A DNA stretch of 63,693 nt, the filler included, from Babesia bigemina (Eukaryota): assembly GCF_000981445.1 (NCBI RefSeq). It is 8 parts of 8 records of this genome, joined end to end, with 100 filler letters (N's around TTAATTAATTAA, not from the genome) between each part and the next. Parts side by side here need not be neighbours in the genome. Positions count along the whole stretch, not along the records: positions 8,148 to 33,904 come from NW_012237364.1; 7 more parts are not named here. The stretch is one strand, 5' to 3'. Shown one piece after another: positions 2,476-27,000 of the stretch. Within the stretch, counting starts at the first letter, position 1. Each line of letters starts with the position of its first letter. The notes under the pieces were generated by a model. It had not been told where the DNA came from, made no database searches, and saw only the letters and a program-made list of their open reading frames with translations. The position numbers were made by a program, and so were the translations under genes.

Positions 2476-2508
2476 TGACCAAGTTGATGACCTAAGTAGT
2501 GATTATTA

Positions 2509-2936
2509 TCCACTCTACATCGCCCCTTAACCACCTTACATCGCCCCTTTACCCACTCCTCATCGCTCCCTAACCCACTCCTCATCGCTCCTTAGTCCAC
2601 TCTACATCGCTCCTTAGTCCACTCTACATCGCTCCTCTATCCACTCTACATCGCCCCTTAACCCACTCTACATCGCCCCTTTATCCACCTTCCATCGCTC
2701 CTTTATCCACTCTACATCGCTCCTTTATCCACTCTACATCGCCCCTTTACCCACTCTACATCGCTCCCTAATCCACTCTACATCGCTCCCTAACCCACTC
2801 TACATCGCTCCTTAACCCACTCTACATCGCTCCCTAACCCACTCTACATCGCTCCTTTACCCACTCTACATCGCCCCTTTACCCACTCCACATCGCTCCT
2901 TTATCCACTCTACATCACCCCTTTACCCACGCTACA
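2509..2936 (+). repeat. 22-bp C-rich tandem array CCACTCTACATCGC(C/T)CCTTAAC, upstream of a ves1 cassette
   Basis: Direct inspection. Confidence 0.9.
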
Positions 2937-2966
2937 TCCCTTGAATCACCTCGCCATATTACCGCT

Positions 2967-4519
2967 ATGACCTCTATAAACCATCCTAATAACTTGTGCC
3001 TTGTCACCCTTCCCTTCCCTTCTTCCACCTCTTGCCACTGCCCTGACCATGTGCCTCCTAGGGAGCTTGACAAGAAATTTGATGAAAATAAAAAGTGCGA
3101 AATAACCTCAAATAACAATCCTACTAACATCCTTACTAACCTCTGCACTGGCCTCGAAACCTTCCTCGGCTTTAACCCTGAGACAAAAGGCTACGACGGC
3201 AGTGGCATTGTGTACTCTGACCTTGACAGGCTGTGTGATGCAGTGATGGGATTTTTGAGTGGTGTTCTCAGTAACATCAAAGACCATTTAGGGCAGCATA
3301 AAGATACTTTAGAAGATGCAATTGACACTCTTAACACCAATAAACACGCCGGTAAAAAAGGTTTTAGTGTTGCGATTGTAAAGGTGGTCGAAGGGGTGGG
3401 GAGGTATAATAAGGCAGTTAAAAAGTCAAATGATCAAGTTAAAAACATCGTCACAGATCTACAAGGCTACACTGAAAATGGAGGTAAGTTACGTGTTTAT
3501 CTTAATACTTTGCAGAATCTGGAGAGCTCTTCACATGAAGATGTTAACAAGGCCAAGCAGCAAGTGGAAGAGAAGCTGCAAGAATCCCAACGGGAAGCGA
3601 GAAACTTCACTGACGCATTAGATACAACAAATACTAAAAATCTTAATGTAGACGCCATTAATGATCTTAATGATAAAGTAAAACAGAAACTTGCTAACGT
3701 GCGTAGTACTGTGATGTATGAAAACGGGCGGTTGGAGGCGGTCAAGGCGCACGCAGAGGGGGAGTTGGCAGAGACGATAAAAAAAGTTGGTGAAGCGTTA
3801 AGGGCGTTGAAAGTAAGTGTAGATTGTAATATAAGTGAACAAGTGACATTGCTGGTTAATGATTTGAAAACAAGGGTAGAGAAGATTTTGCAACTCTTGA
3901 AGACCATTCATAGTATGCTGATCGCTTACGTTCAAGAGGTGGGTGAGTGGATTACCAAGGCAGAACCAGCCGTTCACGCAGCGTTGGAGAAAGTGGAACA
4001 AATAATTAGGGAAGCGAATGCAGGTGACCAGAGCAAACAACCGGCGCAGATTATAGCGGTGGCCGACCAGTTGAAAGTGCAGGCTGACTTACTGTATGCA
4101 TCTGGTACTGCGGCGAAGGAGAGAGTTATTGCGGAAGTGAAAACAGCGCTTGAGGCTGTGAGAAAAATGGATGGGGAATTGAAGGAGGATTTGTATGGAG
4201 TTAAGAAAGCAGTAGAGGGGCAGGTTACTAAAATTAAGGAGGCGATCGGACAAGTGTACTTATAATGTAACCGGCAAGCAAGGTCCAGTAGGAGAGGAGA
4301 ATAAGAGTATCGAAAAGGTGATAGAACACTTTAAAGACAAGATATACGATATTGAGGGGCATGTTGGTGAAGCGATTAACGGTGGAGGACCTCTGGCTGG
4401 TACGGATGACAGCATATATAACAACTGGGGTGCTCTAAGAAGTAAAATAATGACGGCGGTCAATGAAATTTTTTAATAAGGAAAAGAGCCAAAATAGTAC
4501 TTACCTTGGACAAAATTCA
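2967..4519 (+). pseudogene. ves1: 5'-truncated ves1-family cassette (runs off contig end)
   Basis: Contains NLCTGLETFLGF...GIVYSDLDRLCD followed by a helical/coiled-coil region. It lacks the MRHVPKKLTDCPENLRESIDWL N-terminus. Frame breaks after 4265 lie near the contig end. Confidence 0.7.
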
Positions 4520-8147: not shown

Positions 8148-9639
8148 CATCTTATCTTATTCAGCTACTCATCTTATCTTATTCAGCTACTCATCTTATC
8201 TTATTCAGCTACTCATCTTCCTGTTTCTGGCCTTAGATAAGCCTTGATTCTAATTTGCCTTGTTATTGCTACTCATCTTATTCAGCTACTCATCTTATCT
8301 TATTCAGCTACTCATCTTCCTGTTTCTGGCCTTAGATAAGCCTTGATTCTAATTTGCCTTGTTATTGCTACTCATCTTATTCAGCTACTCATCTTATCTT
8401 ATTCAGCTACTCATCTTATCTTATTCAGCTACTCATCTTATCTTATTCAGCTACTCATCTTATCTTATTCAGCTACTCATCTTATCTTATTCAGCTACTC
8501 ATCTTATCTTATTCAGCTACTCATCTTATCTTATTCAGCTACTCATCTTATCTTATTCAGCTACTCATCTTCCTGTTTCTGGCCTTAGATAAGCCTTGAT
8601 TCTAATTTGCCTTGTTATTGCTACTCATCTTATTCAGCTACTCATCTTATCTTATTCAGCTACTCATCTTATCTTATTCAGCTACTCATCTTATCTTATT
8701 CAGCTACTCATCTTATCTTATTCAGCTACTCATCTTATCTTATTCAGCTACTCATCTTATCTTATTCAGCTACTCATCTTATCTTATTCAGCTACTCATC
8801 TTATCTTATTCAGCTACTCATCTTATCTTATTCAGCTACTCATCTTATCTTATTCAGCTACTCATCTTATCTTATTCAGCTACTCATCTTCCTGTATCTG
8901 GCCTTAGATCAGACTTGATTCTAATTTGCCTTGATATTGCTACTCATCTTATCTTATTCAGCTACTCATCTTATCTTATTCAGCTACTCATCTTATCTTA
9001 TTCAGCTACTCATCTTATCTTATTCAGCTACTCATCTTCCTGTTTCTGGCCTTAGATAAGCCTTGATTCTAATTTGCCTTGTTATTGCTACTCATCTTAT
9101 TCAGCTACTCATCTTATCTTATTCAGCTACTCATCTTATCTTATTCAGCTACTCATCTTATCTTATTCAGCTACTCATCTTATCTTATTCAGCTACTCAT
9201 CTTATCTTATTCAGCTACTCATCTTATTCAGCTACTCATCTTATCTTATTCAGCTACTCATCTTATCTTATTCAGCTACTCATCTTATCTTATTCAGCTA
9301 CTCATCTTCCTGTTTCTGGCCTCACTTCGCTCGGCCTTAGATAAGCCTTGATTCTAATTTGCCTTGTTATTGCTACTCATCTTATCTTATTCAGCTACTC
9401 ATCTTATCTTATTCAGCTACTCATCTTATCTTATTCAGCTACTCATCTTCCTGTTTCTGGCCTCACTTCGCTCGGCCTTAGATAAGCCTTGATTCTAATT
9501 TGCCTTGTTATTGCTACTCATCTTATCTTATTCAGCTACTCATCTTATCTTATTCAGCTACTCATCTTATCTTATTCAGCTACTCATCTTCCTGTTTCTG
9601 GCCTTAGATAAGCCTTGATTCTAATTTGCCTTGTTATTG
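8148..9639 (+). repeat. Telomere-associated satellite: 22-bp CAGCTACTCATCTTATCTTATT runs punctuated by a ~49-bp constant spacer
   Basis: Same satellite directly abuts the telomere tract at 42411-46048. Confidence 0.9.
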
Positions 9640-11329
9640 TAATCTCACTACGCACTTACAATCTCTATGTGCCACCTAACTCGGCGAACAATCCGCCTAC
9701 AAGTCCACTACCTTAATCACCAAGCCCTTTTCCACCCTCATGACTCCCCGCTGCCTGAGTGTGACGGATGGACTGGCAGCGCAACCACGCACCTTTGCCC
9801 GCCGCTACCAACGCTATGACTGCGCTACCCGTGTGCCTAATCAACGCTACTGTCACGCTACTCAGTGTCTCTATTTCGGCGCTTCACCGCCACGCCTCGC
9901 CACCTGCCGGCAGTCACCGACGTGACCAACACAAATGCCAAGCACTCAACAAATCACTGCACAGCACATTAACCAACACTTTTACCAACACAATGAGCAA
10001 CTACATAACCAACCAATCAACCAAACCACAAACCAAACACCTCACCAAAGCGCTACCAAAAAGGCCCACCAATGCACTAACCACGGTGCCAGGCAACGCT
10101 CTGACCAAGCCACACTCCACACGACATGAAGCAAGCAGTCAAATCTACTTAAGCAACGCACATGATACACATAAACACGCATCGACGTCCTCTCCGCATT
10201 AAATTAATATGCCTGATGTTAATTGCGATCTTGACCACGAAAGGGGATGGCCGGAATGTCACACCTCATTCCGCCTCCCTACTGAATTGAGTTACTGGCA
10301 CTAATAGTAATCATAATAATACATTACTCGACGCGTTCATCAGCGGCCGACATGCTCTCCCCTGCCTCATCAAGAGACACGCCGCCAAGCTGATATCACA
10401 AGTGCTCGTCAGCACAGTCGAGACACGGCTCCTCAGCTCCGTCGGTCTGCAAACATATTAGTTGATGGCATACATATAATATGAATCTACGCAACAAAAG
10501 AAACACATAAAACACGCATCAAAAGAAACGCACAGTCATGTAAGCGGCAATCAACAAAACAGCTGGATCAGACAACTAACCTACGCCCACCTAGACACGA
10601 ACAGAGTTGGAGCGCACTTGACAAACGTCCAGATAGACAGCGGAACGTCTACAAAGTCAAAACAATAGGAAAATAGTAATTAATCAAATTTTTTACCAGA
10701 CGGTAGCCGGCCATCCAACTCGCCGGAGCCAGGTTCTCCACGCCTGAACACCGCAACTTGGACTCGCCAAGGCTCGGCCGACCGTCCGGGAGAATGCTGG
10801 CGAAACATTCTGAACGGCCAACATGCAGAAAGTGGACACCGTTTTGCAGCATGTTTGTGCATGTGCATGTAAATGTAAACATGCATCTAGACAGCATGCG
10901 CACCGGGTGCACTAATCAACTACGCTACTTTAATGAGCTATTTGCGATGTTAAGACAGTTACGTAACGCGATAATCGCGATGCCAATGATAGTTGGTATA
11001 ATGATCTGTAGATGCGTATGTGTTATGCACGAGTCGCGACCGCGGTCGCTCCTTTCTCTAGACAATTTCATGCTCATTGAAAGTGCATGCATCATCGATA
11101 CGGTATTTGCCGGATGCGCTGTAATGGGGAGCAGTTGAAGGCAATTTTAAGCGGAAAACATTCAAGCAATTACCCCCGCATGCTGGCGGTACAAGGGAAC
11201 AAATAACGACGGTGAGCTATGTAAATACCCACATGCGCAACAAGCATCTTTCGCAGGAATAGCGATCATCAATCATGCGTTCATCGGCACTCTGCACTGT
11301 AATCACCTCATGACACTCCACATGCCAAG

Positions 11330-12886
11330 ATGATACGCCAGCGGACTCTGGATTACTACTTCAAGCCGTCGCCAAACAACGCTATCAAACTGCAGACCAA
11401 TAATGACACCCAGCCGACCACTACACCCATCACAGTCTCTCCTCAACCGGAGCAAAAAGTCAAGCGTCCGAGAGGCAGACCCAGGAAGGTCAGGCCAGTT
11501 GAGACCAGCGAAATTGTCAAGCGTCGGAGAGGCAGACCGCGGAAAGTCAGGCCTGTTGAGACTCCCGACGCTGTCAAGCAGGAGCAGCAGTGCAATGGTA
11601 ACGCGACGCCGGCCAGCGCATGTATTACAGTCTATCCTCAACCGGAGCAGAAAGTCAAACGTCCTAGAGGCAGGCCGCGAAAGGTCAGGCCTGTTGAGAC
11701 TAACGACGCTGTCAAGCAGGAGCAGCTGTGCTATGGTAACGCGACGCCGACAACTACACCCTTCACAGGAATTCCGCAACCGGAGCAGAAAGTCAAGCGT
11801 CCGAGGGGCAGACCCAGGAAAGTCAGGCCTGTTGAGACGACAGATGACGTCAACAAGCAGGAAGTGCGGACTCCAACATACAGCAAGGACACGCCTCGAC
11901 GCAGCAGCCGACTGCGGAATCAACGCACAAACTCACAGCAATATGTATATGACATGACAGAAATGGCCGACGAGACGCCGGCTTCCAATGCGATGCTCTC
12001 AACACAGGACGCATACCAGTCCCCTAGCAGATTGCTTGCCGATTTTCCGTACGCCAGATTCGGCTACACGCATCAGCCGGCTCACTTCCGTTCGCCTACC
12101 AGGAGGGAACTGTGGTCGCGGGTGGGCCGCATCTACAAGGAACTGCAGACTGTCCGCGATGACAATTACAAGCTGCCGCTTGATCCGCATCAGATGGCCA
12201 AGGAATCGCACATTATGCAACTCGAAACTGCACTGGACGACGCGCTAGAGGACGCCAAGTTTCTCGACTGGCAGAGGCATCACATGAATCGGATCAAGGA
12301 GCGCAGCGAGGAACCGCAGCTGGCAAAGGAGGAGCGTGACGTCCTGACGCTGGACGACGTGAGCTGCAATGATGTTATCAACGTTAATATGTTTGACTAC
12401 CTGATGACGCCGCAAGCAGAACGGTGGAACGCAGTGCCGCCAATTCGCTACCACGCCGACACACGCAACGTCAGCAGAGAGACGCCACCGCCACACCGAG
12501 TAGGACTAACTATCATACGCTATTCGCCGTCAGTATCGCAGCACTCAAATGATGAGACGCTCGACGACGCTGGCGAAAATGAGAATGTGCAAGAAAACAC
12601 CGGCCGACCAGTCGTGCGCCGGGAGCCAAGCGTAGACAGCGGCAGACTGCTCAGATGGAACACGCATCCGAGGGATGTGATCCCTAAACGCTACTGTGCA
12701 AATTACCCAGATGACATCGCGCCGTGTTTCTGCTGCACTATGCTATCTGAGCTTCCATGGAAACGCGTACGCAGCAACGCACCTGTGAGGTGTAAATGTG
12801 CAAGGCGTAAGCAGTCCGGTGCCCAGCGAAAAAGACGCAGATTGCGCTTCCTGAGACAAATGAGCAAAATACATCACATATCGTGA
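11330..12886 (+). CDS. 518-aa putative nuclear DNA-binding protein: N-terminal PIP-box, four AT-hooks, C-terminal Cys cluster, basic NLS-like stretch
   Basis: Intact ATG-to-TGA ORF. KRPRGRPRK x3 plus KRRRGRPRK; QRTLDYYF at aa 4-11; YC...PCFCC...RCKC; RKRRRLR. Identical copy at 47739-49295. Confidence 0.8.
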   Translation: MIRQRTLDYYFKPSPNNAIKLQTNNDTQPTTTPITVSPQPEQKVKRPRGRPRKVRPVETSEIVKRRRGRPRKVRPVETPDAVKQEQQCNGNATPASACITVYPQPEQKVKRPRGRPRKVRPVETNDAVKQEQLCYGNATPTTTPFTGIPQPEQKVKRPRGRPRKVRPVETTDDVNKQEVRTPTYSKDTPRRSSRLRNQRTNSQQYVYDMTEMADETPASNAMLSTQDAYQSPSRLLADFPYARFGYTHQPAHFRSPTRRELWSRVGRIYKELQTVRDDNYKLPLDPHQMAKESHIMQLETALDDALEDAKFLDWQRHHMNRIKERSEEPQLAKEERDVLTLDDVSCNDVINVNMFDYLMTPQAERWNAVPPIRYHADTRNVSRETPPPHRVGLTIIRYSPSVSQHSNDETLDDAGENENVQENTGRPVVRREPSVDSGRLLRWNTHPRDVIPKRYCANYPDDIAPCFCCTMLSELPWKRVRSNAPVRCKCARRKQSGAQRKRRRLRFLRQMSKIHHIS

Positions 12887-15800
12887 ACATACCTTTAATC
12901 GCTGCCACCGGCCACTTAAGTGAGTAGACACGTGCTAGCAGTCAGCCGTAAGCTGACCATGGTGATGACTAGACTACGTGTGCGGGGTCAATCGAACATC
13001 GGAAATGTATTCCGAATCTCCCGATACCCGCGCAGGTTATAGTGTTTCCACGCCCAGACACGCCTGACTAATTACACATGTGTGCAGCCACACATCCCAC
13101 ACCACCCTATCGGGGCCCAAGGGCCCCCGTCAGGCTACACCACAGCTGTTGGGTCAAAGTGGGTAAAAATCGGGGCTGATGCCTCACGTCATTTACGTAC
13201 ATTATACGTCATGTATGACACACCAGCAGCCGAGCGGTCGCTGCGACACCGAGCGCCGCCAGATAGACACATGACGACACCGGCAGGTGGAGTCGGATAG
13301 GAAATTTTTTACCGCACATCTAGAGTCACCAAACACGCTTACCAATCATTTTAAGACATTTTACAGCATTTTCTACTTTGGCGAATTTTTTGCCACGACG
13401 CGTACCCCGGCCGACCAGTGACTGGCGGAGTACGATACCACAGGCACCGCCTAACTACTCAAATAAGGTTGGAATGCCACGTCACGTTTTTCGCACACAT
13501 GATGTTATTCCGTCTTATTTTAAGCCACTTTTACAAACGCAATTACGTCCGCCACCGCCGAGATTCCGGCTATATCCATGCCGAGCAGCTAGCTGACGGC
13601 CGACCTTCTTAATGAGACATGACTACAGAATTGTTATGTAAGAACATTAGTAACGTTTAACGTATAATTTACGAGGTCAATGAGCACGTAAGTATGAGCG
13701 GTAGATTGCACAACGGTCAAGTAATGAATGCACTGGCAGACAGGGTGACACAGCTGGGTAGTGGTCAAATGCGAAAAATAATGAGCGTGTGTTTAGGCGG
13801 TGTAATATATCCACATATGTGTATTTTCATCTAAAAGTCACATAGCAATTTTAATACTAACATAGGTAGTTACTCAGCAAGTTACGCCTTATGTTACCCA
13901 TTGGTGTACATTTAAATAGTCAACACAATCACCTAAGCTTTTAATTAACGATTTACATACAACATTATTCCACACGTTAACCATATAATTCATAATGTTT
14001 TTGAGCAGTAACTAGACCGTTAACTCACCAGCCGCTCCCTGCTGCGCTTATGCTCCGGTGCTGGGCGAATTGGTGTCCGACGGCATGTCGCAATTTGTTA
14101 AGCAATTGTTGACTAAACAAGATCTCAATGACACATAATAGGCAATGTAAAATACGCAGCACATCTGTCTGTCACGTCTAATAGATGAGCCATTAGGTCG
14201 AGGCAGGCAGCGGAGCTGCCTAGTGCTGGGTGGGTGGTGCACGGAAAACTGTATTAATTCGTGCTCTACATGCCTTTCGTATCACATATGTGATGCTGTA
14301 ATTACGTGCTATTCGCTGCGTGAGTGCCGGTCGCTGCATGTCTTCTGGCGGACAGGTAGCTAACGTGTACGGCGTATTATCGCCGACATGATTACGCGAT
14401 GAATAGCATTCTCATGTCTTCAGATGTATGGAATGATGTTATAATAATCGCTATGTCAACCCACCTTGTTACTTACCTGTTGTCCGCAGTGGTCGTGGCC
14501 ACGGCGTTACATGTTGCGTTTTCCACTGCTCACGTTTCACCTAGCGGAATGATTTGTTTTGTCACGCATCCCTAATCACGTCACTAATCACATCTCAGAC
14601 GCATAATTACTTGACTAGCCGCCTATAATTTTCCTGGACGACGTGGCCCGTTTCCTCTTCGTCCTAGGCTACCAGGGGTGTCGGCGCTGTGCTAGACCTG
14701 GCGGAGGGTATCCGCCGTGCATTTGGAATAACGTCGTTGATGCGATAATATGTCATTTGATGATGTGATTGACAGTTTCTCAGCTGTATAACAATTTTGC
14801 CTTATCAGAGCAAATCTCACTGCTAGCGATGCAACGTTGATTAAGCTGGAATGTGCGTGAGAACCGCTTCATCAATAATGCGTTGTTGCTAGTCGAGCGC
14901 GGTACGCGCATGTGACGGTATACACGTGGTAGCGATTATGCAGCCAAAGAGACACGAGGCGCCGCGATTGGCGTCAGATGAGCTAGAAACTAAACAGCAG
15001 GCAACGTCAGTTGCCCGTGTGACTGAAATAAGACGAATGGACGAAATGGGAATACACAAATCAGCGTCGCAACGCTGAGTAACAATATCACGAGCAGATT
15101 CACGTGATAGAATGTTAACACGTAAAAATAGCGATAAGCAATTAGACTAGCGCACAATTTAACGCGGTGGCACATGTGATAATTAACAGTGTACTTCTGG
15201 TCACGAAGCAGCTGCGATAAGCTGCCGTGATAAACAAGCAGACTAGCAGCGAGTTAAGCACGTCGTAGAGCGGAAGGCGTAAGCCGGGGGAATGGGAAAG
15301 TAGAGAGGGAGGGTATCAGTCAGCTATCAATTCAGCCGTTTACTTAGCTATTTGCTTATCTTCTTGGTTACCTCTTTGGGTACCTTCTTGGTCAACACGT
15401 TACTCAGCCGCTTGTTCACGGCTTCGTTGCTCCTCTCACCCTTATCGGTGATCACATATTCGTAGGCATTACTGCCGCTCTCGTAGCTCATCTAGCGAAC
15501 ACTTTCGTTGCTCTTCACTGCTCCTGATGAAGGAACGGGCGCCTTCAGGAACGGTTGGGAAGGGCCGGGAACTGGGCGAATGGTTGTAGCTCCGATTTGG
15601 AGGCAACCCAGCTTTTGAGGCTGGGTGAGAGTTGAGTGTTTGAGTAAAGAGTGCGTATGAATTTGATTTGAATAGAAATTAGCAGCGTAGTCATATGTAA
15701 CGTAGGTGCGCATCGTCACTTATTCGAACGTTTTACCCCATCCCCGTGGGAGACCGGCCGGCGCATGGTGATGCGATATGGAATCCTCAGTGCGATGTCG

Positions 15801-16126
15801 TTGTTGACTGGAAGGCTGGGCAAGAGCCGTGAGCAGGAGCGAATGGCGCCGGAAGGGAGAGCGAAGGCCGAGATTCCGCTGAGGTAGGTGGTCGAGGTAG
15901 CGATATAAACGGTTTTCCTTGTTAGGTGAGCGAGGAAGGCTGCGAAATTGGTGAGTTTTTGCGTGATTCCATAACGTAGTGTGACTGTGAGCGAGATTCC
16001 ATCGAGATTCCATGTGCATGAGTTTGAGTTGAGTTATGTAATGTAGCTGTGGCATGCGTGTTGAGTGCGGGTGGTCGTGATTAGTTAGAAACGTGAGTGA
16101 AAGTGCGAGGTAAGTGAGCCTTGAAA
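12887..16126 (+). promoter_or_regulatory. 3.2-kb unique upstream region (putative promoter/5' UTR) of the ATG-bearing ves1 gene
   Basis: No convincing ORF. Found only upstream of the two ves1 copies that have the native start, and duplicated without indel at 49296-52535 (offset 36409). Confidence 0.5.
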
Positions 16127-19100
16127 ATGAGGCATGTCCCTAAGAAATTAACGGACTGTCCGGAAAATCTCCGTGAGTCCATCGACTGGTTGATCCAGGT
16201 TAGGTATGGGAATGGTGAAGGTAAGGGTCTTGATGAGTTGGCCAAAGCTCTGAAAAAGTTGATTGAGGAGGCTATTGAGAACGCTACTAAAAGCTTTGAA
16301 AAGCGTGAAAATGAACTTCATTGCAATTATCTTCCTAATAATAACAAGTGTTGTGAGGAGCTTAAACAGAAAATTGAGGGAGCTAAATCCGACAACTCCA
16401 AGCTTCTTAAAGCTGAATCCGACTTACAAAAGCACATTGATGCAGATCATTCTCTTACTGATGACGCCAGGAAAAAGCAGTTGAAGGATATTGATAATAG
16501 CCGTATTCAACTTGGTCACCTTGCTGGCCAGCTTGGAGGATTTGTTGGTCAAAGTGAGAGTGTTAAGAAAGCCGTTATGTATGCTATTATCGCTAAAATT
16601 AACAGTCATGAAGAGCTTAAAAATGTTTACTCTTCTCTTGTTACTACCCTTTCTGAGTCTGTCAAGTCTGGTGTCCAGGCTGGTGACACCAAGAAAATTA
16701 GTGAGCTTAATAAGTTAGTTACTGCAGAAATTCAGCGTCTTAATGATCAACTTAGTAAGCCTAATAACCTTAATAATAACTCTCCTTCTTCCCCCTCTCC
16801 CTCTGCTGACCCAGCCAAATTGCAGTCCAAGTTGGAGGCATTGGAGAAAGTGAAGGAGCTTTGTGAATTTTATGAGAATCTTAATACTAAACAAAATGAT
16901 CCTAAAAAGCTCTTAGATAATTTATGTTCCGGCCTCGAAAAATTCCTCGGCTTCAACTCTGACTCCAAAGGCTACGACGGCAGTGGGATTGTGTACTCCG
17001 ACTTGGACAGGCTGTGTGACGGGGTGATGGGATTTTTGAGTGGTGTGCTTGGTGCGGTGAAAAACACTCAGACATACAATGTCGGTAAAAATACATTACA
17101 AAACTTGGTAAGTAATGAAATTAACAATCATCTTTGCTCAGGGCACGAGGGCTTTAAAAGGCTTTTCGAAAAGTTGCCCAAGGAAATCGAGAAGTATAAC
17201 AGGGACGTGAAAAAACAGAATGATGATATCACAGCCAAGATAAACAATTTAGAGATGCAGTTAAATACCATGAATGATAAGGTAAGTAAAGTTTTAGAAA
17301 ATGATGCTGTTTCAGGTACAACCAAGAAATCCGTGCAGGCTGTGACGTACAGTGAGGAGCACGTGGAATACGCTGTGATAAATATTAGGCAGTATCTTCG
17401 TGACTGTCAATATAATGCCGATAGATTCAACGAAGCATTCGACCTAGAACAAAGATTAGACATGCAAACTGCTGTTAATGATCTTAACTCTAAGTTACGT
17501 AATGATGTACTTGTAGCCACGAAGGCAGTCAAACATGAAACACAGCGACTTGAGCAGTTGGCGCAGAAGGAGTGGGATGACTATAAATACATGAAGAGAA
17601 CGGTGAGAGCAACGATGGAGAGTCTGAAATTATCAGTTAACGGTGAGGTAAAATACCAGGTAGATGAACTAGTTAAGAAATTGAAAGAGAAGGTTACGGA
17701 AATGAAAAATAACCTTGAACCAATTAGAGACAATCTCGGGGAATACATCGGACATTTGACTGCGTGGAAGTCAGCAGGCGACACAGCCGTTACGAAGGCG
17801 AAGTCGCAGTGTGATGAGATTGTTTCGAAGTTGAACGGGAGGGATTATCAACAAAATTCCGGGGATAAAGGAGCGGTGAAAAAAGCGGCAAAAGCATTGC
17901 AAGAGAAGGCGGAAGAGCTTAGGACCAAAGCGTACGATGCTAAGCAGCAGGTTGAGCAGAAAGTACAAGAAGCCTTGAAAGCTGTGCACCAAATGAATGA
18001 TGACCTGAAGCAGGATTTGTCGAAGGTGAGGGAGGCGATTACCGGTGAGGTTGATAAAGTTAAGCAAGCAATTGGGAAGCTGTATGCAGGTATTACGACT
18101 GGAGAATCAGGAGAAGGAAATGAAAATCAAGAAATTAAAAACATAGTCGAATATTTCAGAACAAAACTTAAAGAAATTACGGGAAGTGTGGGTGGAAGAG
18201 AGAACCCTAAAACAGGTCTCATGGGAATTATCTTCCAAGTAAGAGAATATGCAAAAACGTTTCAGAATAGATTTAAAGCATCCATTCAGAGCATGGTTCA
18301 ACAGTTGGTGGAATGTGAGGGTATACAGGAGAGACTCATAAAATCAGTTAAAGCAAAACTTGGCAGAGGTAACATGATAAGAGTTGATGAAGAAGTGAAA
18401 CGCATAATCCAGCAGCGGATTATAAGTCCAATCGAAGCCATTAATGCTTCTTCATCAAACCTGGGAACGAAACCAAATGTTGAAGCAAATTTGTCTGATA
18501 TTAAAGAATATTTATGCAATTACGGCAAGCAGATTGATGAGCATTTACAAAGAGCGAACGCATTTTTACAATCCTACGCCAAACAGTTTGAACACAGCCA
18601 AAATAGACCGGAGATTACAGGCGACTATTTTATTAGTAGGGTCGTCAAAACCATTCTTACCGCGCTACAGAAAGCGGTTAAGGGTGCGGAGAATGAATTC
18701 GATCAATTCATAATAGACTCCAAGATTGCTCAGTTGAGTATAGCTACAAGTGCAGCCGAGACGCTGGAAGACAACGTAAAAAAAGCTCTTGGCATTGGCT
18801 CCGGTAATAATACAGTTGCCGTCGACGTCGATAAATCTATAAATAATGTCAACGCTGTGGCTAGGCAGCAGTTGCCGGGTAATAGTGTTTCATCGGTTGA
18901 CTTAAGTCAGGCCACATCTAGTTTTACGCGTTACACAAAGCACGTTGATCAGAGTAAACTGACTGCTCTTCAGACCACTAACCTTAATGCCATTCTTGAC
19001 GCAAACAAACTCCCACACGCCATCAAAGGGATTAACGATCAGGTGGTTGCTGAGACGTTGAAAGATGTCGTAGAAGAAAAGAACGGAGGTGATACACAAA

Positions 19101-22100
19101 TCCACAACAAAACCTTCTCCACTCTGCGCACCGCCGTCGACTCCAGCCTGGACAAATTCACCGAAGCCGTTGAAAAGCTTGTTAAAAAGGACAGCGTCAA
19201 TACTACAGTGAATGCCTACCTGTTGGATTTGGAGAAGATGCTTAAGGAAAGTGATCCTGTCAAGGTTTCGGCTGATGGAATGACTGCCCACTCCTCCGTC
19301 AAAGGCCTCGAGAAAATAATAGGAAATTTCACCACTCTTAAGAACAACCTGGAGAGCGGTCCCATTGCATTGGCCGACTATTTCATCGAATCCTACGCTG
19401 ACGCAGAAAAAGATCAAACCATACGAAACCTCATAGATTATGTCTACTCCCAAGTCAACATCGCTAAAGATCTCCTCACCACCGCCGCCCGCCGCAACTA
19501 CGTCACCTCCGTGAAATCGCTCCTCACCGCGTTCGCGGACAAGGTCGAAAAGGAGTTGGCGGGGTTGCCGGGGGAGATTGATGCGGATCTGACGATCGGG
19601 TTCAAGGGGTTGATGGGAAACTTTTACGAGAAGTTTATTGATAAAATTAAGCCAATCAAAGAAATTAATATTAAGTCTACTCCCCAATCAATGCCACTGA
19701 GCACCGCAGCTGAAAAGGTACAGAGCGGTTTCGAGGAGTTCGTGGGCGCAGTTATGAAACAGACCGATATGTTTGGGAATGTGCTTGCCAAAATTGAGAC
19801 ATCAAATCATAATGATGACCAGATTCAAGACACTTTCCCCCCTCTACTACAGACAGTTATCTCAGTGTCACGGGCTTTGGAGGACACTTTTTCATACCTT
19901 ACGGGTTCACATCATTTTGACTATGAGGTTATTAAACATCTGCAGAGACTACAAACGGCATTGAATGACTTCACTCCTACGAAATTCGGTGACACTTCCA
20001 GTCCAATCCTACAAGCATTAAAGGAGGGATTCTTCGGCATAGTTACGGAGCTTCAGAAAGTGTATATTAACACGTACTCTGGTCAGACGATTAAGTGGGA
20101 GGAGGGCAATCCTGAAACTACATTCTGCGCCAAAGCCTTCCTCAGTGCACTCGAATTTCTAAATGAGGACCTCAGCTATTTGAGAGAGCAATGTACTGAG
20201 AAGTGGTCGCCTAAACAGATCTATGCCTCAAGCAGTCTCGGCACATTCCTCCATAAATGCGGCTACGGCGTTGCTACTCTCGAATCCAAGCAGGACGGTG
20301 AGCTACGTAATAAGCCTGACTGCATGGGTTCAGATGTACGCGGGTTCCTTGTCGGCGAGGGATACACTGAAGTTTATAACTCCAAATCCAATATCAAACA
20401 CGCATTACAATACATTTACGACTACCTTCCCGATTATTACGATGTTTGCCACCTGTCCACTTCATCCTCCAAAAGACCATGTTCCGTCTACGAAATGCTA
20501 TGCTGGCTTACCGGGCTTCCGCACAATAAGGCATATAATGAGTTGTTACTACACGGTCTAAGTGATATGTTTGTAGACCCAAAGCGGCAGGAAAAAGAGG
20601 TCGACGGTGACATTGAGTTCACAGTGGATCGGACGGAACACGTGCACATCGACGCGTATCCAAACCGACTTACTTACGAGAACACCTGCAATCTCGTCGA
20701 TCATATCTGTGCTAAATCGCACGACGTATTGTGTCGAATCCTTGGCACCGGTGACGAGAACACCATGTACGCTGTCGATTACTCCACCAACTCACTCAAG
20801 TTGTACTACCCCTCTTCGGGTGAGGAATGCCTTGACATGTTCCTCAACATTTTGCGTAGATTGTTCCCACCACTCAAATACTTGCAAACGCAATGTGGCA
20901 TTGCCGCAAACGAATTCGGCTGGGCTGGTTGCCGTTATGGCAAGGATGTCCATACAACCAAATGGCCATGTAGCGGACACTCAAGCAGTGAAGCAACGTG
21001 CCATGCAAATTGTCAAACAACGTGCCAACCTACGTGCCAACCAAAATCGCCACTAATGAGCTACCTAAACGATTGCCTTCCGGGTCATTTACCTCACGCC
21101 CTGACTGGCATTGGTTGCAAAGCCAAATGTTCAACCTGCCCGAAATCCACGCCCGGGATGCCGTGTATCACGCCACTTGGATTCAGGTGTTTCTCTGGGA
21201 CCACACGTGAAGGTAGAGATATATGTAACGTGTTGACCAAGTTCTTCGGCAATGGCGATCTTAGCACCCTATTCAGCCTACAACCCAAAACGCCGTCTAC
21301 GCTGCCGGAGCATTTCGGATTCACGTTGTCGCTTGTTGCTGGCTGGGTTGGTAGCGACAACCAGAAGCGCAAGACAGGTGTGGAAAAACCTTTTGAAGAT
21401 GCCATTAGTAGCGTGTCCATTGGCCTGTACGACGAGCGCACAAAGCTCACGGATGCACTGCGTGATGCCTATGGAAACAATCAGAATACGCACGATGCTG
21501 CGAAATATCATAATCAAGCTGGTAAGAACCAAGGTACTGAAATTAAAAATTACGACTTGTCAAGTCTGTCAATGGATACTTTGTGTTCTCGTGATAACCA
21601 TTGTGGCCCGTACTTGGCGTCGCTGTGCCGGGATTACTACGGGTGTTTACCACACAAGAATTCGGAAACATATCTGTCATGGGCCGTATACCTTCCATGG
21701 ACATTTTGGGACTTCCTTAAAAATCTGTACGATGCGTTCTGTTCCATCGCTTGTGTAGATTGGGGATGCCGTGGTTGCTTAAAAGGCGATAAGTGCAGGA
21801 AAGGATCACACGGGTCTGTCAACGACGTTACGAAGAAATGTAATTGTCAGTGTCCATCCATTGTGGAATGCAAAGGTGTAGCCTCGACATTGTACAAATA
21901 TGGTTTCGTCTTTGGTGAAGCCTCAACGCTTAATAACAAGGATGCGCCCAAGAAGTGCTCTGATTTCTGTAGTCAGTTGGAGAATGTTATAAAATCGAAA
22001 TATTTCAAGAAATTGTTTGAGGAGTGCGACAACTTCCTATATTATATCCGTTTCCCCTTCATGACCCTAACACTAGCCCTCTGGCTCCTCTCTTTGCTGT

Positions 22101-22249
22101 ACCTCATCCACATCATGGTCATCCGCCTCGACCTGCTCCACATCAAATCGCATTTGCACAGTCCGTCAAGTCATAGAATTGCTGCTCAATCACTACTTGC
22201 TGCGGGACGTGTTAACAAGCTTAACAGAGTGTTTTATCTGCAGCCTTAA
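16127..22249 (+). CDS. ves1: Complete ves1-family variant erythrocyte surface antigen-like protein (~2040 aa)
   Basis: ATG at 16127. Has the N-terminal KKLTDCPENLRESIDWL motif typical of VESA1-family proteins, GIVYSDLDRLCD, a Cys-rich C-terminal region, a TM helix and the RLDLLHIKSHLHSPSSHRIAAQSLLAA tail. Confidence 0.9.
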   Translation: MRHVPKKLTDCPENLRESIDWLIQVRYGNGEGKGLDELAKALKKLIEEAIENATKSFEKRENELHCNYLPNNNKCCEELKQKIEGAKSDNSKLLKAESDLQKHIDADHSLTDDARKKQLKDIDNSRIQLGHLAGQLGGFVGQSESVKKAVMYAIIAKINSHEELKNVYSSLVTTLSESVKSGVQAGDTKKISELNKLVTAEIQRLNDQLSKPNNLNNNSPSSPSPSADPAKLQSKLEALEKVKELCEFYENLNTKQNDPKKLLDNLCSGLEKFLGFNSDSKGYDGSGIVYSDLDRLCDGVMGFLSGVLGAVKNTQTYNVGKNTLQNLVSNEINNHLCSGHEGFKRLFEKLPKEIEKYNRDVKKQNDDITAKINNLEMQLNTMNDKVSKVLENDAVSGTTKKSVQAVTYSEEHVEYAVINIRQYLRDCQYNADRFNEAFDLEQRLDMQTAVNDLNSKLRNDVLVATKAVKHETQRLEQLAQKEWDDYKYMKRTVRATMESLKLSVNGEVKYQVDELVKKLKEKVTEMKNNLEPIRDNLGEYIGHLTAWKSAGDTAVTKAKSQCDEIVSKLNGRDYQQNSGDKGAVKKAAKALQEKAEELRTKAYDAKQQVEQKVQEALKAVHQMNDDLKQDLSKVREAITGEVDKVKQAIGKLYAGITTGESGEGNENQEIKNIVEYFRTKLKEITGSVGGRENPKTGLMGIIFQVREYAKTFQNRFKASIQSMVQQLVECEGIQERLIKSVKAKLGRGNMIRVDEEVKRIIQQRIISPIEAINASSSNLGTKPNVEANLSDIKEYLCNYGKQIDEHLQRANAFLQSYAKQFEHSQNRPEITGDYFISRVVKTILTALQKAVKGAENEFDQFIIDSKIAQLSIATSAAETLEDNVKKALGIGSGNNTVAVDVDKSINNVNAVARQQLPGNSVSSVDLSQATSSFTRYTKHVDQSKLTALQTTNLNAILDANKLPHAIKGINDQVVAETLKDVVEEKNGGDTQIHNKTFSTLRTAVDSSLDKFTEAVEKLVKKDSVNTTVNAYLLDLEKMLKESDPVKVSADGMTAHSSVKGLEKIIGNFTTLKNNLESGPIALADYFIESYADAEKDQTIRNLIDYVYSQVNIAKDLLTTAARRNYVTSVKSLLTAFADKVEKELAGLPGEIDADLTIGFKGLMGNFYEKFIDKIKPIKEINIKSTPQSMPLSTAAEKVQSGFEEFVGAVMKQTDMFGNVLAKIETSNHNDDQIQDTFPPLLQTVISVSRALEDTFSYLTGSHHFDYEVIKHLQRLQTALNDFTPTKFGDTSSPILQALKEGFFGIVTELQKVYINTYSGQTIKWEEGNPETTFCAKAFLSALEFLNEDLSYLREQCTEKWSPKQIYASSSLGTFLHKCGYGVATLESKQDGELRNKPDCMGSDVRGFLVGEGYTEVYNSKSNIKHALQYIYDYLPDYYDVCHLSTSSSKRPCSVYEMLCWLTGLPHNKAYNELLLHGLSDMFVDPKRQEKEVDGDIEFTVDRTEHVHIDAYPNRLTYENTCNLVDHICAKSHDVLCRILGTGDENTMYAVDYSTNSLKLYYPSSGEECLDMFLNILRRLFPPLKYLQTQCGIAANEFGWAGCRYGKDVHTTKWPCSGHSSSEATCHANCQTTCQPTCQPKSPLMSYLNDCLPGHLPHALTGIGCKAKCSTCPKSTPGMPCITPLGFRCFSGTTREGRDICNVLTKFFGNGDLSTLFSLQPKTPSTLPEHFGFTLSLVAGWVGSDNQKRKTGVEKPFEDAISSVSIGLYDERTKLTDALRDAYGNNQNTHDAAKYHNQAGKNQGTEIKNYDLSSLSMDTLCSRDNHCGPYLASLCRDYYGCLPHKNSETYLSWAVYLPWTFWDFLKNLYDAFCSIACVDWGCRGCLKGDKCRKGSHGSVNDVTKKCNCQCPSIVECKGVASTLYKYGFVFGEASTLNNKDAPKKCSDFCSQLENVIKSKYFKKLFEECDNFLYYIRFPFMTLTLALWLLSLLYLIHIMVIRLDLLHIKSHLHSPSSHRIAAQSLLAAGRVNKLNRVFYLQP

Positions 22250-22374
22250 TCGTACTCACGTGATTACTGTCTACACTCACCTAGCATCACCTACTCACCT
22301 ATACAACTAATTGCTGTCTAATGTTTTAAATCACTCATTAATCGTCGTATGTGATTGCTTAGTTAGCATGTGGG

Positions 22375-22600
22375 TTATGTGCTGACCTAGTGGCTGACCT
22401 ACCACCTGACCAATGCCATGACCAAAGTGCTGACCGAGGTGCTGACCAAAGTGGTGACCAAGGTGCTGACCAAGGTGCTGACCAATGTGTTGACCAATGT
22501 GCTGACCAATGTGCTGACCAATGCCATGACCAAGCACCTGACCTAGTTAAGGTCACGGCAGCGATGACATGGACAAAGCACCTGACCTAAGTGGTGATTT
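22375..22600 (+). repeat. 12-bp TGACC-core repeat with a single 20-bp unit, ves1 3' flank
   Basis: Direct inspection. Confidence 0.8.
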
Positions 22601-22605
22601 ACAAT

Positions 22606-23824
22606 CCACTCTACATCGCCCCTTATCCACTCTACATCGCACCCTTATCCACTCTACATCGCCCCTTAACCCACTCTACATCGCCCCTTTATCCACTCTA
22701 CATCGCTCCCTAACCCACTCTACATCGCCCCTTATCCACTCTACATCGCCCCTTAACCCACTCCACATCGCCCCTTAACCCACTCTACATCGCCGCTTTA
22801 CCCACTCTACATCGTTCCTTAATCCACTCTACATCGCTCCTTAACCCACTCTTCATCGCCCCTTAACCCACTCTACATCGCCCCTTATCCACTACACATC
22901 GCTCCTTAACCCACTCTACATCGCCGCTTTACCCACTCTACATCGTTCCTTAATCCACTCTACATCGCTCCTTAACCCACTCTACATCGCTCCCTAACCC
23001 ACTCTACATCGCCCCTTTACCCACTCTACATCGCTCCTTAGTCCACCCTACATCGCTCCCTTATCCACTCTACATCGCCCCTTTACCCACTCTACATCGC
23101 CCCTTAATCCACTCTACATCGCCCCTTAACCCACCCTACATCGCTCCCTTGTCCACTCTACATCGCTCCTTAACCCACTCTACATCGCTCCTTAACCCAC
23201 TCTACATCGCTCCCTAACTCACTCTACATCGCTCCCTAACCCACTCCACATCGCCCCTTAACCCACTCTACATCGCTCCTTTATCCACTCTACATCGCCC
23301 CTTAACCCACTCCTCATCGCCCCTTTATCCACCTTACATCGCCCCTTTACCCACTCCACATCGCCCCTTAACCCACTCTACATCGCCCCTTAACCCACTC
23401 CACATCGCTCCCTAACCCACTCTACATCGCTCCCTAACCCACTCAACATCGCCCCTTAACCCACTCTACATCGCCCCTTTATCCACTCCACATCGCTCCC
23501 TAACCCACTCTACATCGCCCCTTTATCCACTCCACATCGCTCCCTAACCCACTCTACATCGCTCCCTAACCCACTCAACATCGCCCCTTAACCCACTCTA
23601 CATCGCCCCTTTATCCACTCCACATCGCTCCCTAACCCACTCTACATCGCTCCCTAACCCACTCAACATCGCCCCTTAACCCACTCTACATCGCCCCTTA
23701 ATCCACTCTACATCGCTCTTTTATCCACTCTACATCGCTCCCTAACCCACTCTACATCGCTCTTTTATCCACTCTACATCGCCCCTTAAACCACTCCACA
23801 TCGCCCCTTTATCCACTCTACATC
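22606..23824 (+). repeat. 22-bp C-rich tandem array (~1.2 kb)
   Basis: Direct inspection. Confidence 0.92.
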
Positions 23825-24013
23825 CCTTGAATCACCTCGCCATAATACCGCTATGACCTCTATAAACCATCCTCATAACTTGTGCCTTGTCACCCTTCCC
23901 TTCCCTCCTTCCACCTCTGCCACTGCCAAGTCCCATCATGTTCACCTTAACTCCAAATCTCTCGAATTACCTCGTCTTATTAACGCTATGACCTCTATAA
24001 ACCTATATAATAA

Positions 24014-27000
24014 CTTGTTGATGCCGACCATTCTCTTACTGACGATGCTACTAGAAGAGCCTTGAATGACATTGAGTCCAAGCTCATTAGCCTTGGTCAC
24101 CTGGCTGGGCAACTTGGGAGTTTCATTGGTGAGAGTGAGAGTGTTAAGAAAGCCGTTAAGAATGCTATTATCGCTTGTTTCGACACTAATCCAGACCTTA
24201 AAAATGACCTAAAAGATGATTACTCTTCTCTTGTTACTAACCTTTCTGAGTCTGTCAAGTCTGCTGGCAAGCCTGTTGACACCGAGAAAATTAGGGAGCT
24301 TAGTGAGCAAATTAAGAAAGATATTCAGCTTACTGAAGAGACAATTAAGAAGCTTGAATCACCTAAAATTAACTCTCCTTCTTCCCCCTCTCCCTCTGCT
24401 GACCCAGCCAAATTGCAGTCCAAGTTGGCCGCTTTGAGGAAAGTGGAGAAGCTTTGTGGATTTTTGACTAATCCTAAAAATGCGTCAAATGATCCTAAAA
24501 ACCTCTTAGATAATTTATGTGACGGCCTTCAGACTTTTCTTGGTTACTCTCCAACCTCCAAAGGCTACACTGGCCAGGGGATAGTGTATTCGGACTTGGA
24601 TAGGCTGTGTGACGGGGTGATGGCGTTTTTGAGTGGTGTTCTCAGTGCGGTGAAAGATGAAAATGAAGTGACAACTTATGACATACATCTTGATAAGAGA
24701 CTTGAAAAAGTACTAGAAGAGGTAAATAAAAAAATTGGCTCCGGGCGTGCTGGGCTTGCGGCGTCTGTCGACGCGGTGAAGGGGTGGTTGGAGGGGTATG
24801 AAGGTGAAGTTAGAGAGAAAACAGAGGCATTAAAGCGTAATGTAAAGTTGCTGAACAATAGTATAACTGATACGTACATTGCGAAATTCGATAGTTACCA
24901 TGATAGAAGTCTCGAACAAATTCACGATGTATTTATAAAATGTACGGCTGATCTATTTGGGACCATGTCCGTTCTGAAAAACAATTCGCAAGGCTATATG
25001 TCACTGGACTACGGCTTGAAAACTAAGTTAGAAGTTCCATTAGGAAAAATAGATGAAGCATTAAAGATGTTGAAAAATACCGCTAATGACAGCGATTTGT
25101 TCAGGCAAGCGAAGCGCGTCGATGATCAATTGGTGACACAGAGAGATCATGTTGTGAATTCCATAGAAACGGGGAGTAATGTATTGCTGAGCACATTTGC
25201 CGAGGAATTTAATAGGGTCGTCGGCGTAATAAACAGGTTGAATGATGATAAGAGGACATATTTTCAAGGGATACATGAGACGTTGACGGACGCTGAGAGG
25301 CTGATCCAAAATTTCGACACGACGTATAAGTACAAAATTGTTGAACAATTTGAAAATCTTAAAATTCATTTGGCGAATATAGATGCGGACAGAGGGGATA
25401 AGGGAAACTCGAAACTAAAAAATCATTTTGAAGCTTTGAAGACCGACGTTCAAAAGATTGGCAATGATGTGAGTGTGGAAAATATAAAATTGAATGAGTG
25501 GAAAGATGCTGCTTTGACAGCTGTGCATAAAGCACAGGCAACAATAGGTGAACTAGTTAACGTTCTGAATGGTGAGGAGGTAGGAAAATTGCCGAAGAAG
25601 AAAGCAGCCGTCACAACTGCGGCAGAAGAAATATATCAGCAGAATGAGCACCTTTGGGCTTCAATAATGCAGGCCGGGAGAGCGTTAGAGGAAAAAGTAT
25701 CTGCGGCCCAGGAAAGTCTCAAGACCTTAGATGAAGCAGTTAGCAAAGATTTGATGGAATTAAAGTTCGGTATAAATGAAAGAATGGGATGGTACGTGGA
25801 TAAACTGAAGGAAGCAGCAAATAAAGCAGATCAAGCTGCGAACGGGCCCTCGGCGTCATCTGTCAAACCGGATGACATACTCAACTTACTTGATGGCGAA
25901 CTTAAGAAACTGTATTCCGCCGCCAAAGAAAAATCATTAACGATGAACGGTAAAGACTTAGGGAGTGATGATCTCAATGAAGCCCTGCAGGCTTTCCACG
26001 ATAGCCTAAAACTGACTAACAAAAAAACTAATAAATCTATCACAATAATTGACGCAATCCGGGAAGACCTTCAAAATGCTGTAGCTGCCGCCTTAAAGAA
26101 AGCTCATCAAAAAGTGGATAGTGTTAAACACCTTATGACCCATTATAGAATGCATCTAAACGACAGTGGCGCAATTAAAAGTGCGATAAGAAGTATTCAA
26201 ACCGATGTGAAAAAAGCTCTAGATGAAGCTCCCCAAATTGGCCACCTGTTATATACGTCCAACAATCTTACTAGTAAGTTCGACGCATTCATTCACGCTA
26301 TTCAGCAGCTTGCTCAGAATGGAGCACCACATAGCCAAAATAAAAACAGCGTGTCTCACTACTTGGCAGACTTGGATCAGATGATTGTGACGGCTGATGA
26401 AGAAGGGTATACTTTGACTGCCGACTATTCGAGCGATTTGAATTTATCAATAAAACGGCTTGCAAAAATATACGATAAGCTGAAAGATTTGCAAAAGAAC
26501 ATCGCTGCAGTCACCAAGTCCACCGATGCCGGGGAGATCGACGAGATCATAAGTCACCTTCAGGGTCTTCCTGCTTTAGTTGATAAAGCCACTCTGCAGA
26601 CAAAACAGAACATTTACGATTTGTATAATAACCTCGTAGATAAGATCTCGTTTATGCGTCAATCCTTTGAGCTAGCTGACAACGCCATGACAAATGCCAT
26701 CAGCAGTCTTCAGCAAACTTTCAACTCAGTTCGTGAAAATGCTAAATCTGGTGTCGAAAACTTACGAAATTATCTTATTGATCTTGCCGTAAAATCATTC
26801 TCCACCCTAACCACTGAAGTACGAATGCTGTTTGCCGAGCGGCATAAAGCAGACTTGAAGGCCTTAAAAATCTCAGTTGAATCTCAGATACCTGTAGTCA
26901 TTGAAATCCTGCATTACGACAAACGCAACGGTCTCAAAGGTCTCATGAAACGAATGAATAATCATGAAACCACATTTCAGAAGATGAGTACGCTTTTCCA

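What the first reader, a model, noticed from the sequence alone, without database searches (positions are those of the whole stretch)
9063..16218. Candidate telomere-linked ves1 expression site captured in two switched states
Seen: ~9063-16218 and ~45472-52627 have a constant offset of 36409 and identical ORF tracks (satellite end, AT-hook gene, 3.2-kb upstream region, first 30 ves1 codons). They diverge at 16219/52628, 2 bp after the junction element, into different ves1 bodies. The second copy is anchored to a telomere tract, with transcription directed away from the telomere. These are the only ves1 copies with the native start. Known: the described B. bovis LAT is a divergent ves1-alpha/ves1-beta pair on a bidirectional promoter, altered by segmental gene conversion; no divergent ves partner is visible here. 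Inference: a single or few-copy subtelomeric expression site fed by downstream and dispersed start-less cassettes, a switching architecture I do not recognise as described for Babesia.
Basis: partly seen in the sequence, partly recalled or inferred. Interest (0 to 1): 0.92.

Follow-up and report, generated by a model that had tools for sequence, protein, structure and literature searches.

The report
Babesia telomere caps head antigen-cassette archives
In the cattle parasite Babesia bigemina, an identical 7.3-kb block with a start codon, tied to a telomere in one copy, heads two different patchwork surface-antigen genes, and rows of start-less copies follow that likely act as a silent parts archive for antigen variation; the block likely sits on several chromosome ends rather than being one switching site.

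Summary
The 7,280-bp identity is real (8939-16218 = 45348-52627, no mismatch). The two copies lie on separate contigs, and only one shows a telomere. The genes are Babesia bigemina ves1b. All five downstream or dispersed cassettes in the window lack the native start and sit behind a 22-bp array plus a conserved leader. Both capped genes are mosaics: one shares 4,151 identical bases with a start-less cassette, the other 127 identical residues with a chromosome-internal gene.

One locus caught in two states is unlikely. Five contigs carry this start, in two sequence variants, three of them in one proteome of a cloned strain. The satellites differ, and two other DNA runs hint at two or more copies. 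The caps also do not hold the only starts: 26 B. bigemina relatives on large contigs have their own. In B. ovata, which has the same cassettes, the dominant transcript among those checked is chromosome-internal.

Best reading: a two-tier repertoire of start-bearing genes (internal and telomere-capped) fed by a silent subtelomeric cassette archive through gene conversion. I found no description of this for Babesia. Expression of the caps is untested.

The parts
41575..42370 (+). Telomere tract (CCCTAAA-type, degenerate) at the start of contig c5
42414..46048 (.). Subtelomeric satellite of 22-bp units with 17/60/75-bp variants, copy 2 (complete from telomere to unique DNA)
8148..9640 (.). Same satellite, copy 1; cut by the contig start; unit order differs from copy 2 left of 8939
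8939..16218 (+). Cap block, copy 1 (7,280 bp)
45348..52627 (+). Cap block, copy 2, identical
11330..12886 (+). Orphan 518-aa ORF with four AT-hook-like motifs; probable gene, function inferred only
   Evidence: no homolog; frame kept in pieces from two other runs
47739..49295 (+). Second copy of the AT-hook-like ORF
12887..16126 (+). 3.2-kb upstream region, presumed promoter and 5' UTR (untested); no divergent ves partner
16127..22249 (+). Capped ves1b gene 1, one open frame of 2040 aa, mosaic
52536..53315 (+). Capped ves1b gene 2; frame closes after 259 aa, 300 bp before the contig ends (error or real break not determined); mosaic
16174..16218 (+). Junction element (family-wide conserved coding block); also at 52583-52627, 6192-6236 and 32050-32092
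17045..21195 (+). 4,151-bp tract identical to the start-less cassette of contig c4 (40078-35928, minus)
20526..21219 (+). 694-bp tract identical to the ves fragment of contig c6 (57428-56735, minus)
22074..22465 (+). 392-bp 3' end and spacer identical to 1762-2153
22377..23824 (+). 12-bp spacer repeats, then 22-bp cassette-upstream array
23825..29623 (+). Leader (duplicated) and start-less cassette entering at about residue 104 of capped gene 1
29749..31965 (+). 12-bp and 20-bp spacer repeats, then 22-bp array
31966..33904 (+). Leader and start-less cassette entering at the junction element; cut by contig end
4620..8047 (+). Contig c2: 22-bp array, leader, start-less cassette entering at the junction element
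2506..4519 (+). Contig c1: 22-bp array, leader, cassette lacking the first 200-250 residues (leader ATG in frame here)
34904..41463 (-). Contig c4: 22-bp array, leader, start-less cassette entering at about residue 250; shares the 4,151-bp tract

Best explanation
An identical 7.3-kb block with a start codon heads two different patchwork ves1b genes and likely caps several B. bigemina chromosome ends, ahead of head-to-tail rows of start-less cassettes that likely serve as a silent archive whose pieces would be copied by gene conversion into start-bearing genes, capped and chromosome-internal alike. Shown: the identical block; telomere linkage of one copy; inward orientation; loss of the native start in 5 of 5 window cassettes; identical patches between capped genes and other copies, with edges in conserved blocks. 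Inferred: the caps are kept alike by copying of one chromosome end onto another from the last shared homology (the junction block) out to the telomere; the 22-bp arrays and leader, absent from the cap, promote cassette-to-cassette exchange and offer 3' homology; patches flow from archive to start-bearing genes (direction not shown); the capped genes are a few of roughly 30 expression-competent loci, switched on in place one at a time, not the only site.
For: Block, junction and cassettes. Five B. bigemina proteins carry this start, all on contigs under 26 kb, four MRHVP and one MRHTP; three, covering both variants, lie in one named proteome whose reference strain was cloned and has four chromosomes (PMC4066756). 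Of 65 B. bigemina hits, 26 with their own start are all on contigs over 0.8 Mb, and 28 of 33 on small contigs lack it. Nine ves-sized genes with the highest chromosome-3 locus numbers lie in a reverse-strand row 6-20 kb apart; the 2 of 9 I could check are start-less by gene model. Mosaics: 4,151 bp shared with cassette c4; residues 19-145 of gene 2 identical to internal BBBOND_0310230. Two other DNA runs hold the block at roughly 90% identity with an intact ATG, the junction about 18-28 times deeper than the leader, and a cassette leader joined at 16174 in one run. B. ovata: 29 of 30 hits on small contigs lack the start; 16 of 18 start-less genes checked have RPKM 0.37 or less; the top three genes checked have their own start, the first (486.6) beside housekeeping genes; an internal expressed gene (35.4) shares 118-, 59- and 46-residue identical patches with a start-less gene.
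Against: No RNA data for the caps. Copy number rests on protein starts and on contig depth that the tool says is no copy number; I could not read the DNA upstream of P0001, P0033 or P0125. Outside the window 'start-less' is judged from gene models, not DNA. Capped genes are not clearly richer in long shared runs: 2 of 5 exceed 100 residues against 2 of 26 own-start and 5 of 32 start-less genes. 18 of 21 internal own-start B. ovata genes are also nearly silent (2.8 or less), and 2 of 18 start-less ones reach 9-12, so silence alone does not separate the tiers. In B. caballi the dominant ves1c transcript (38%) is telomere-near (PMC10463595), which fits dedicated telomeric sites better. Direction of patch transfer is not shown.
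Confidence: 0.55

Rival explanations
1. The caps are a small set of dedicated telomeric expression sites, as in Trypanosoma brucei: in the animal the expressed ves1b is cap-linked, and joining a cap to a cassette at the junction switches antigen in one step.
For: Cap conserved with intact ATG in two other runs; five different bodies behind the same start; 2 of 5 window cassettes and 4 B. ovata gene models on small contigs begin at the junction block; B. caballi dominant gene telomere-near; peptides matched to chromosome-3-end genes in a B. bigemina proteome, one with 7 quantified peptides; the one own-start B. ovata gene on a small contig has RPKM 10.7 against 0.9 or less for the nine genes numbered after it.
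Against: Dominant B. ovata gene among those checked is internal, 45-fold above that gene; 26 B. bigemina relatives on large contigs have their own start; dominant VESA1b peptides matched internal genes, though in a different strain with 0% ves1b orthology, so position is not shown.
Confidence: 0.22
2. One expression locus assembled twice from cells that had switched.
For: Zero mismatches in 7,280 bp while other isolates differ by about 10%; short contig c5 ends in a broken frame, as a minority form might.
Against: Two leader variants in one proteome of a cloned strain; satellite order differs; leader contig depth about twice gene-specific pieces in both runs, 5.4 against 2.3-3.6 and 9.8 against 3.8-6.6 (weak); two overlapping variants at 14829-15074 in run X2.
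Confidence: 0.1
3. Ordinary subtelomeric segmental duplication with decaying pseudogenes; no role in variation.
For: The identity edge falls where all ves1b genes turn hypervariable, so it needs no special element; entry points vary; own-start and start-less genes are interspersed in a noisy tree.
Against: The two complete cassettes keep open frames of 1,869 and 1,781 codons; the same arrangement exists in B. ovata; identical patches are shared with start-bearing genes.
Confidence: 0.09
4. Assembly or polishing artefact: one collapsed repeat pasted onto two contigs.
For: Fragmented contigs, satellite at the start, perfect identity that read-based polishing could produce.
Against: Five separately annotated fusions with different edges and one variant start; junction and cassette leader seen in independent runs. 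It could inflate the 100% figure but does not remove the architecture.
Confidence: 0.03
5. Cassettes get their start by long-range or trans splicing onto the pyrimidine-rich leader.
For: Leader is 58-70% pyrimidine and some entry points follow an AG.
Against: Fused forms exist as genomic DNA; the AG at the junction is part of a native codon; the entry at 24014 has no AG; no consensus donor after the cap leader.
Confidence: 0.01

Closest known systems
Babesia bigemina ves1b family (BbigVes1b; Jackson et al. 2014, PMC4066756)
   Same: Full-length homology, 34% over 1,859 columns to BBBOND_0303890, named BbigVes1b in the paper's table; strong mosaicism and transposition reported.
   Different: The sections read do not describe start-less cassettes, 22-bp arrays or telomere caps; the chromosome-3-end genes are labelled hypothetical and 37-44% of ves1b loci could not be compared for gaps.
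[quoted passage not shown]
   Same: Segmental gene conversion from silent copies; many loci able to switch on in place (PMC6630957 passages).
   Different: No divergent partner; donors here are start-less tandem cassettes; telomeric cap; 75% of B. bovis ves1 are interstitial.
Pneumocystis msg-I UCS/CRJE system (PMC10622565 passages)
   Same: Leader with start joined through a short conserved coding element to start-less subtelomeric genes.
   Different: UCS is single copy and CRJE starts every msg-I; here the leader is multi-copy, 2 of 5 cassettes start at the element, about 26 relatives have their own start, and genes point away from the telomere (msg orientation toward the telomere is recalled, not from a call).
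Trypanosoma brucei VSG expression sites and silent archive (PMC6152948 passages)
   Same: Several near-identical telomeric blocks that recombine, a boundary repeat, an associated non-antigen gene, repeats upstream of archive genes.
   Different: There the VSG abuts the telomere downstream of promoter and 70-bp repeats; here the order is reversed and the 22-bp repeat is absent from the cap. No homology; expression not shown.
Borrelia vls silent cassettes (search listing and abstract start only)
   Same: Start-less cassettes in tandem donate segments by gene conversion.
   Different: Bacterial, one expression locus, short cassettes; here 5.5-kb cassettes and many start-bearing genes.

Membership tests
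BbigVes1b | Full-length homology to named ves1b genes with the conserved membrane-anchored C terminus | tested here: met
BbigVes1b | Expressed on the infected red-cell surface | not testable with these tools
   no protein or RNA data for these copies
B. bovis LAT | Divergent ves pair on a bidirectional promoter | tested here: not met
   no hit of 139 ves1b-like proteins in 9651-16126; no ORF over 144 aa there apart from the AT-hook-like ORF and an overlapping 184-aa frame; ves1a queries were not available
B. bovis LAT | Mosaic gene built from segments of other copies | tested here: met
B. bovis LAT | Actively transcribed locus | not testable with these tools
   no RNA holder listed
Pneumocystis UCS/CRJE-type system | Single-copy leader and promoter | tested here: not met
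   five contigs, two variants; depth hint
Pneumocystis UCS/CRJE-type system | Junction element at the start of every silent gene | tested here: not met
   2 of 5 window cassettes
Pneumocystis UCS/CRJE-type system | Silent subtelomeric genes lack the native start | tested here: met
   5 of 5 window cassettes lack it; leader ATG in frame in 1 of 5
Pneumocystis UCS/CRJE-type system | No family member expressible without the leader | tested here: not met
   26 of 65 B. bigemina hits have their own start; internal gene dominant in B. ovata
T. brucei-type telomeric expression sites | Several conserved telomeric blocks | tested here: inconclusive
   two identical blocks, one with telomere; three more starts without readable upstream DNA
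T. brucei-type telomeric expression sites | Antigen gene next to the telomere, behind repeats shared with the archive | tested here: not met
   gene points inward 10 kb from the telomere; 22-bp repeat and leader absent from both caps
T. brucei-type telomeric expression sites | Expression confined to these sites | not testable with these tools
   indirect sister-species data conflict

The most novel reading that the evidence does not exclude
B. bigemina has a small set of interchangeable telomere caps that are its true in-animal ves1b expression sites. A cap carries promoter, an AT-hook chromatin protein gene and the first 16-30 codons; copying or crossing it onto a start-less cassette further in, at the junction block, switches antigen in one step and trims the array. 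This inverted, cap-moves-to-cassette system would be a trypanosome- or Pneumocystis-like expression-site design not reported in Apicomplexa in the papers I searched.
Probability: 0.22. Interest if true: 0.87.

Novelty: new variant of a known kind. Interest (0 to 1): 0.62.

Why it matters
How B. bigemina varies its red-cell surface antigen is open; the B. bovis LAT model was said not to carry over (PMC4066756). The window shows that a large share of ves1b copies are start-less cassettes that gene finders have given invented N termini and named hypothetical, C3H1 or ebh proteins, and that a conserved telomere cap heads the rows. That changes how the repertoire is counted, gives unique primers (cap leader against cassette leader) that make the expression-site question testable by PCR and long reads, and points to convergence with trypanosome, Pneumocystis and Borrelia archives. 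B. ovata shares the cassettes, so the design predates the two species.

Tried and rejected
No whole genome was held, so other chromosome ends could not be read as DNA. No RNA holder listed; this says nothing on expression. The window has no single-copy gene, so depth had no true baseline; the one non-ves locus, rap-1, is multi-copy. Pfam gave no VESA family hit for the three ves frames and nothing for the AT-hook-like ORF. That ORF found no relative (whole, C-terminal 333 aa); the structure atlas did not answer. Of 11 listed differences in that ORF, 7 change the residue when taken singly, so codon-level selection is not shown; only the frame is kept. A tree of the last 600 residues of 90 proteins mixed tiers and species and looked alignment-limited; I do not lean on it. 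The leader ATG as a general start was rejected (in frame in 1 of 5). Four look-ups in earlier findings returned nothing. The B. ovata gene-coordinate file could not be read, so gene order there rests on locus numbers. Three B. ovata length matches had two ves-like rows and were assigned by locus number; non-ves rows of equal length were dropped.
Full report
Observation. The window is eight contigs joined by 100-base spacers. Along the diagonal at offset 36409 the only long identical run is 8939-16218 = 45348-52627, 7,280 bp with no mismatch. Copy 1 lies on a 25.8-kb contig that begins inside a satellite; copy 2 on a 12.1-kb contig that begins with a telomere tract in left-end orientation, followed by the full satellite. 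The block holds the satellite end, a 518-codon ORF with four AT-hook-like motifs, 3.2 kb of upstream DNA and 30 codons. The offset itself has no meaning. Left of 8939 the satellites differ in unit order, and copy 1 has a unit pattern missing from the complete satellite of copy 2; this favours two ends but could be satellite misassembly.

Identity of the genes. The best relatives are Babesia bigemina and B. ovata proteins (best 120 of 229 listed, 17 of 17). Capped gene 1 aligns over 1,859 columns at 34% with BBBOND_0303890, which the B. bigemina genome paper's table names BbigVes1b. The rap-1 pair on the last contig fits the genus. No ves-like sequence lies upstream on either strand, so this is not a B. 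bovis-type divergent pair.

Cassettes. Five other ves copies in the window have a visible 5' end. All five follow a 22-bp array and a conserved leader of 80-130 bp, and none has the native start. Two enter at the junction block, one at about residue 104 and two at about residue 210-250 of gene 1; an ATG in the leader is in frame in 1 of 5. The array and leader words do not occur in either cap, so they cannot be the 5' homology for loading a cap. The junction block is the family's conserved N-terminal coding motif, after which all members vary, so an identity edge there is expected under any recombination route.

Mosaics. Gene 1 shares 4,151 identical bases with the cassette on contig c4, which has its own leader and a different 3' end, 694 with c6 and 392 with c1. 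Gene 2 is identical over residues 19-145 to internal BBBOND_0310230, whose start region is degenerate, then changes donor at the next conserved block. Against this, long shared runs are not clearly enriched in capped genes: over 100 residues in 2 of 5, 2 of 26 own-start and 5 of 32 start-less genes.

How many caps. Of 65 B. bigemina hits, five begin MRH(V/T)P and all lie on contigs of 8-26 kb; 26 have their own start and all lie on contigs over 0.8 Mb; 28 on small contigs, and 6 on large, lack a normal start by gene model (the 65 include four proteins of this window). P0001 and P0033 (MRHVP) and P0125 (MRHTP) belong to one named proteome, whose reference strain was cloned and has four chromosomes (PMC4066756). 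Two variants in a clone imply at least two loci. I could not read their upstream DNA. Two public DNA runs from two studies hold the block at roughly 90% identity with the ATG intact. The leader contig has depth 5.4 and 9.8, gene-specific pieces 2.3-3.6 and 3.8-6.6, and the junction 99 and 193-276; one run shows a cassette leader joined at 16174. The tool warns that depth is no copy number, so I take only the pattern: leader rare but probably above one, junction abundant. In the ORF the four listed pieces have no gap or two gaps that cancel, while flanking pieces have up to six, which suggests a real gene; no relative was found.

Arrays at a chromosome end. The paper's proteome table lists nine ves-sized 'hypothetical' genes with the highest chromosome-3 numbers, all on the reverse strand across about 100 kb; two were among my hits and are start-less by gene model. 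If this is the right end (inferred from numbering), they point inward like the window's genes. Peptides matched these entries, but from another strain with 0% ves1b orthology, and no unplaced-contig identifiers occur in the table, so neither these matches nor the dominant matches to internal genes locate the active site.

Sister species. B. ovata has the same tiers: 29 of 30 hits on small contigs lack the start, four of them entering at the junction block behind a pyrimidine-rich leader. I matched 21 of 32 own-start genes on large contigs, the one on a small contig, and 18 of 41 start-less genes to the paper's RPKM table (PMC5660447). The top value, 486.6, is an own-start gene beside an ABC transporter and a kinase; next are 35.4 and 32.5, also own-start on the large contig. 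The small-contig own-start gene has 10.7. Sixteen of 18 start-less genes are at 0.37 or less and two at 9.3 and 11.8; 18 of 21 internal genes are at 2.8 or less. The 35.4 gene shares three identical patches with a start-less gene. This is culture data, and unchecked genes could rank higher. In B. caballi the dominant ves1c gene is telomere-near, which points the other way.

Mechanism. I commit to a two-tier repertoire. Start-bearing genes, internal and capped, are likely switched on in place; start-less rows are likely a silent archive whose pieces are copied in at conserved blocks; caps are likely made alike by copying one end onto another from the junction block outward, which gives identical blocks, a sharp edge and drifting satellites. 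The anatomy and shared patches are shown; direction, timing and expression are inferred. It works like the Pneumocystis and trypanosome systems in having a leader block and an archive, but fails their membership tests on copy number, universality of the junction and orientation.

Literature. Nine searches (eight on Babesia) found no description of caps or start-less cassette rows in Babesia; the library lacks most subscription papers, including the primary LAT paper, known here only through review passages. Seen: PMC4066756 abstract, sections 13, 21, 23, 24, 26, part 1 of 22, passages, supplement 2 whole and rows of supplement 3; PMC5660447 passages and rows of supplement 1 (its coordinate file unreadable); passages only of PMC10463595, PMC10622565, PMC6630957, PMC6152948, PMC12626333, PMC13627686 and bioRxiv 2024.01.17.575932; listings only for the rest. 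Figures and unread supplements of these papers could show subtelomere layouts that I did not see.

Verdict. Real feature, new variant of a known kind, interest 0.62. The single-site switching reading is about 10% likely; dedicated multi-copy telomeric expression sites about 22% and would merit 0.87.

Noticed in passing
window 59917-62852: Tandem rap-1 pair (Pfam RAP-1 hits), matching the known rap-1a/rap-1b repeats of B. bigemina.
   Followed up: partly
window 57558-59813: Whole contig of a 12-bp/48-bp tandem array related to the 12-bp spacer that follows cassettes.
   Followed up: no
window 53719-57451 (minus) and 1-760: A ves fragment with the second type of C terminus is followed by a different spacer (24-bp and 74-bp repeats); two 3' end types may define two conversion classes, possibly the reported ves1ba.
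   Followed up: no
window 1049-1760: Three related short hydrophobic reading-frame ends, one also at 53729-53874 (minus), directly before a 3'-only ves stub at 1762-1937.
   Followed up: no
window 3338-3871 and 34023-34555: 534-bp internal ves piece duplicated at 99.8%, set tail-to-tail against the c4 cassette's spacer.
   Followed up: no
window 15348-15491 (minus): Short 47-codon ORF diverging from the capped gene, 635 bp upstream of its ATG; no ves similarity.
   Followed up: partly
B. ovata BOVATA_048280 and 048290: Two orphan genes with RPKM 2306 and 416 numbered just before the only own-start ves1b on a small contig; could be cap-associated genes, contig position not verified.
   Followed up: no
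P0026 residues 6-117: The B. ovata small-contig own-start gene is identical to internal P0030 over 112 N-terminal residues, as capped gene 2 is to an internal gene.
   Followed up: partly
window 9660-16207 in runs X1, X2: The outer part of the cap (10321-14606) has two to three times the contig depth of the ATG-near part in X1, so the outer part may sit on more chromosome ends than the start does.
   Followed up: partly
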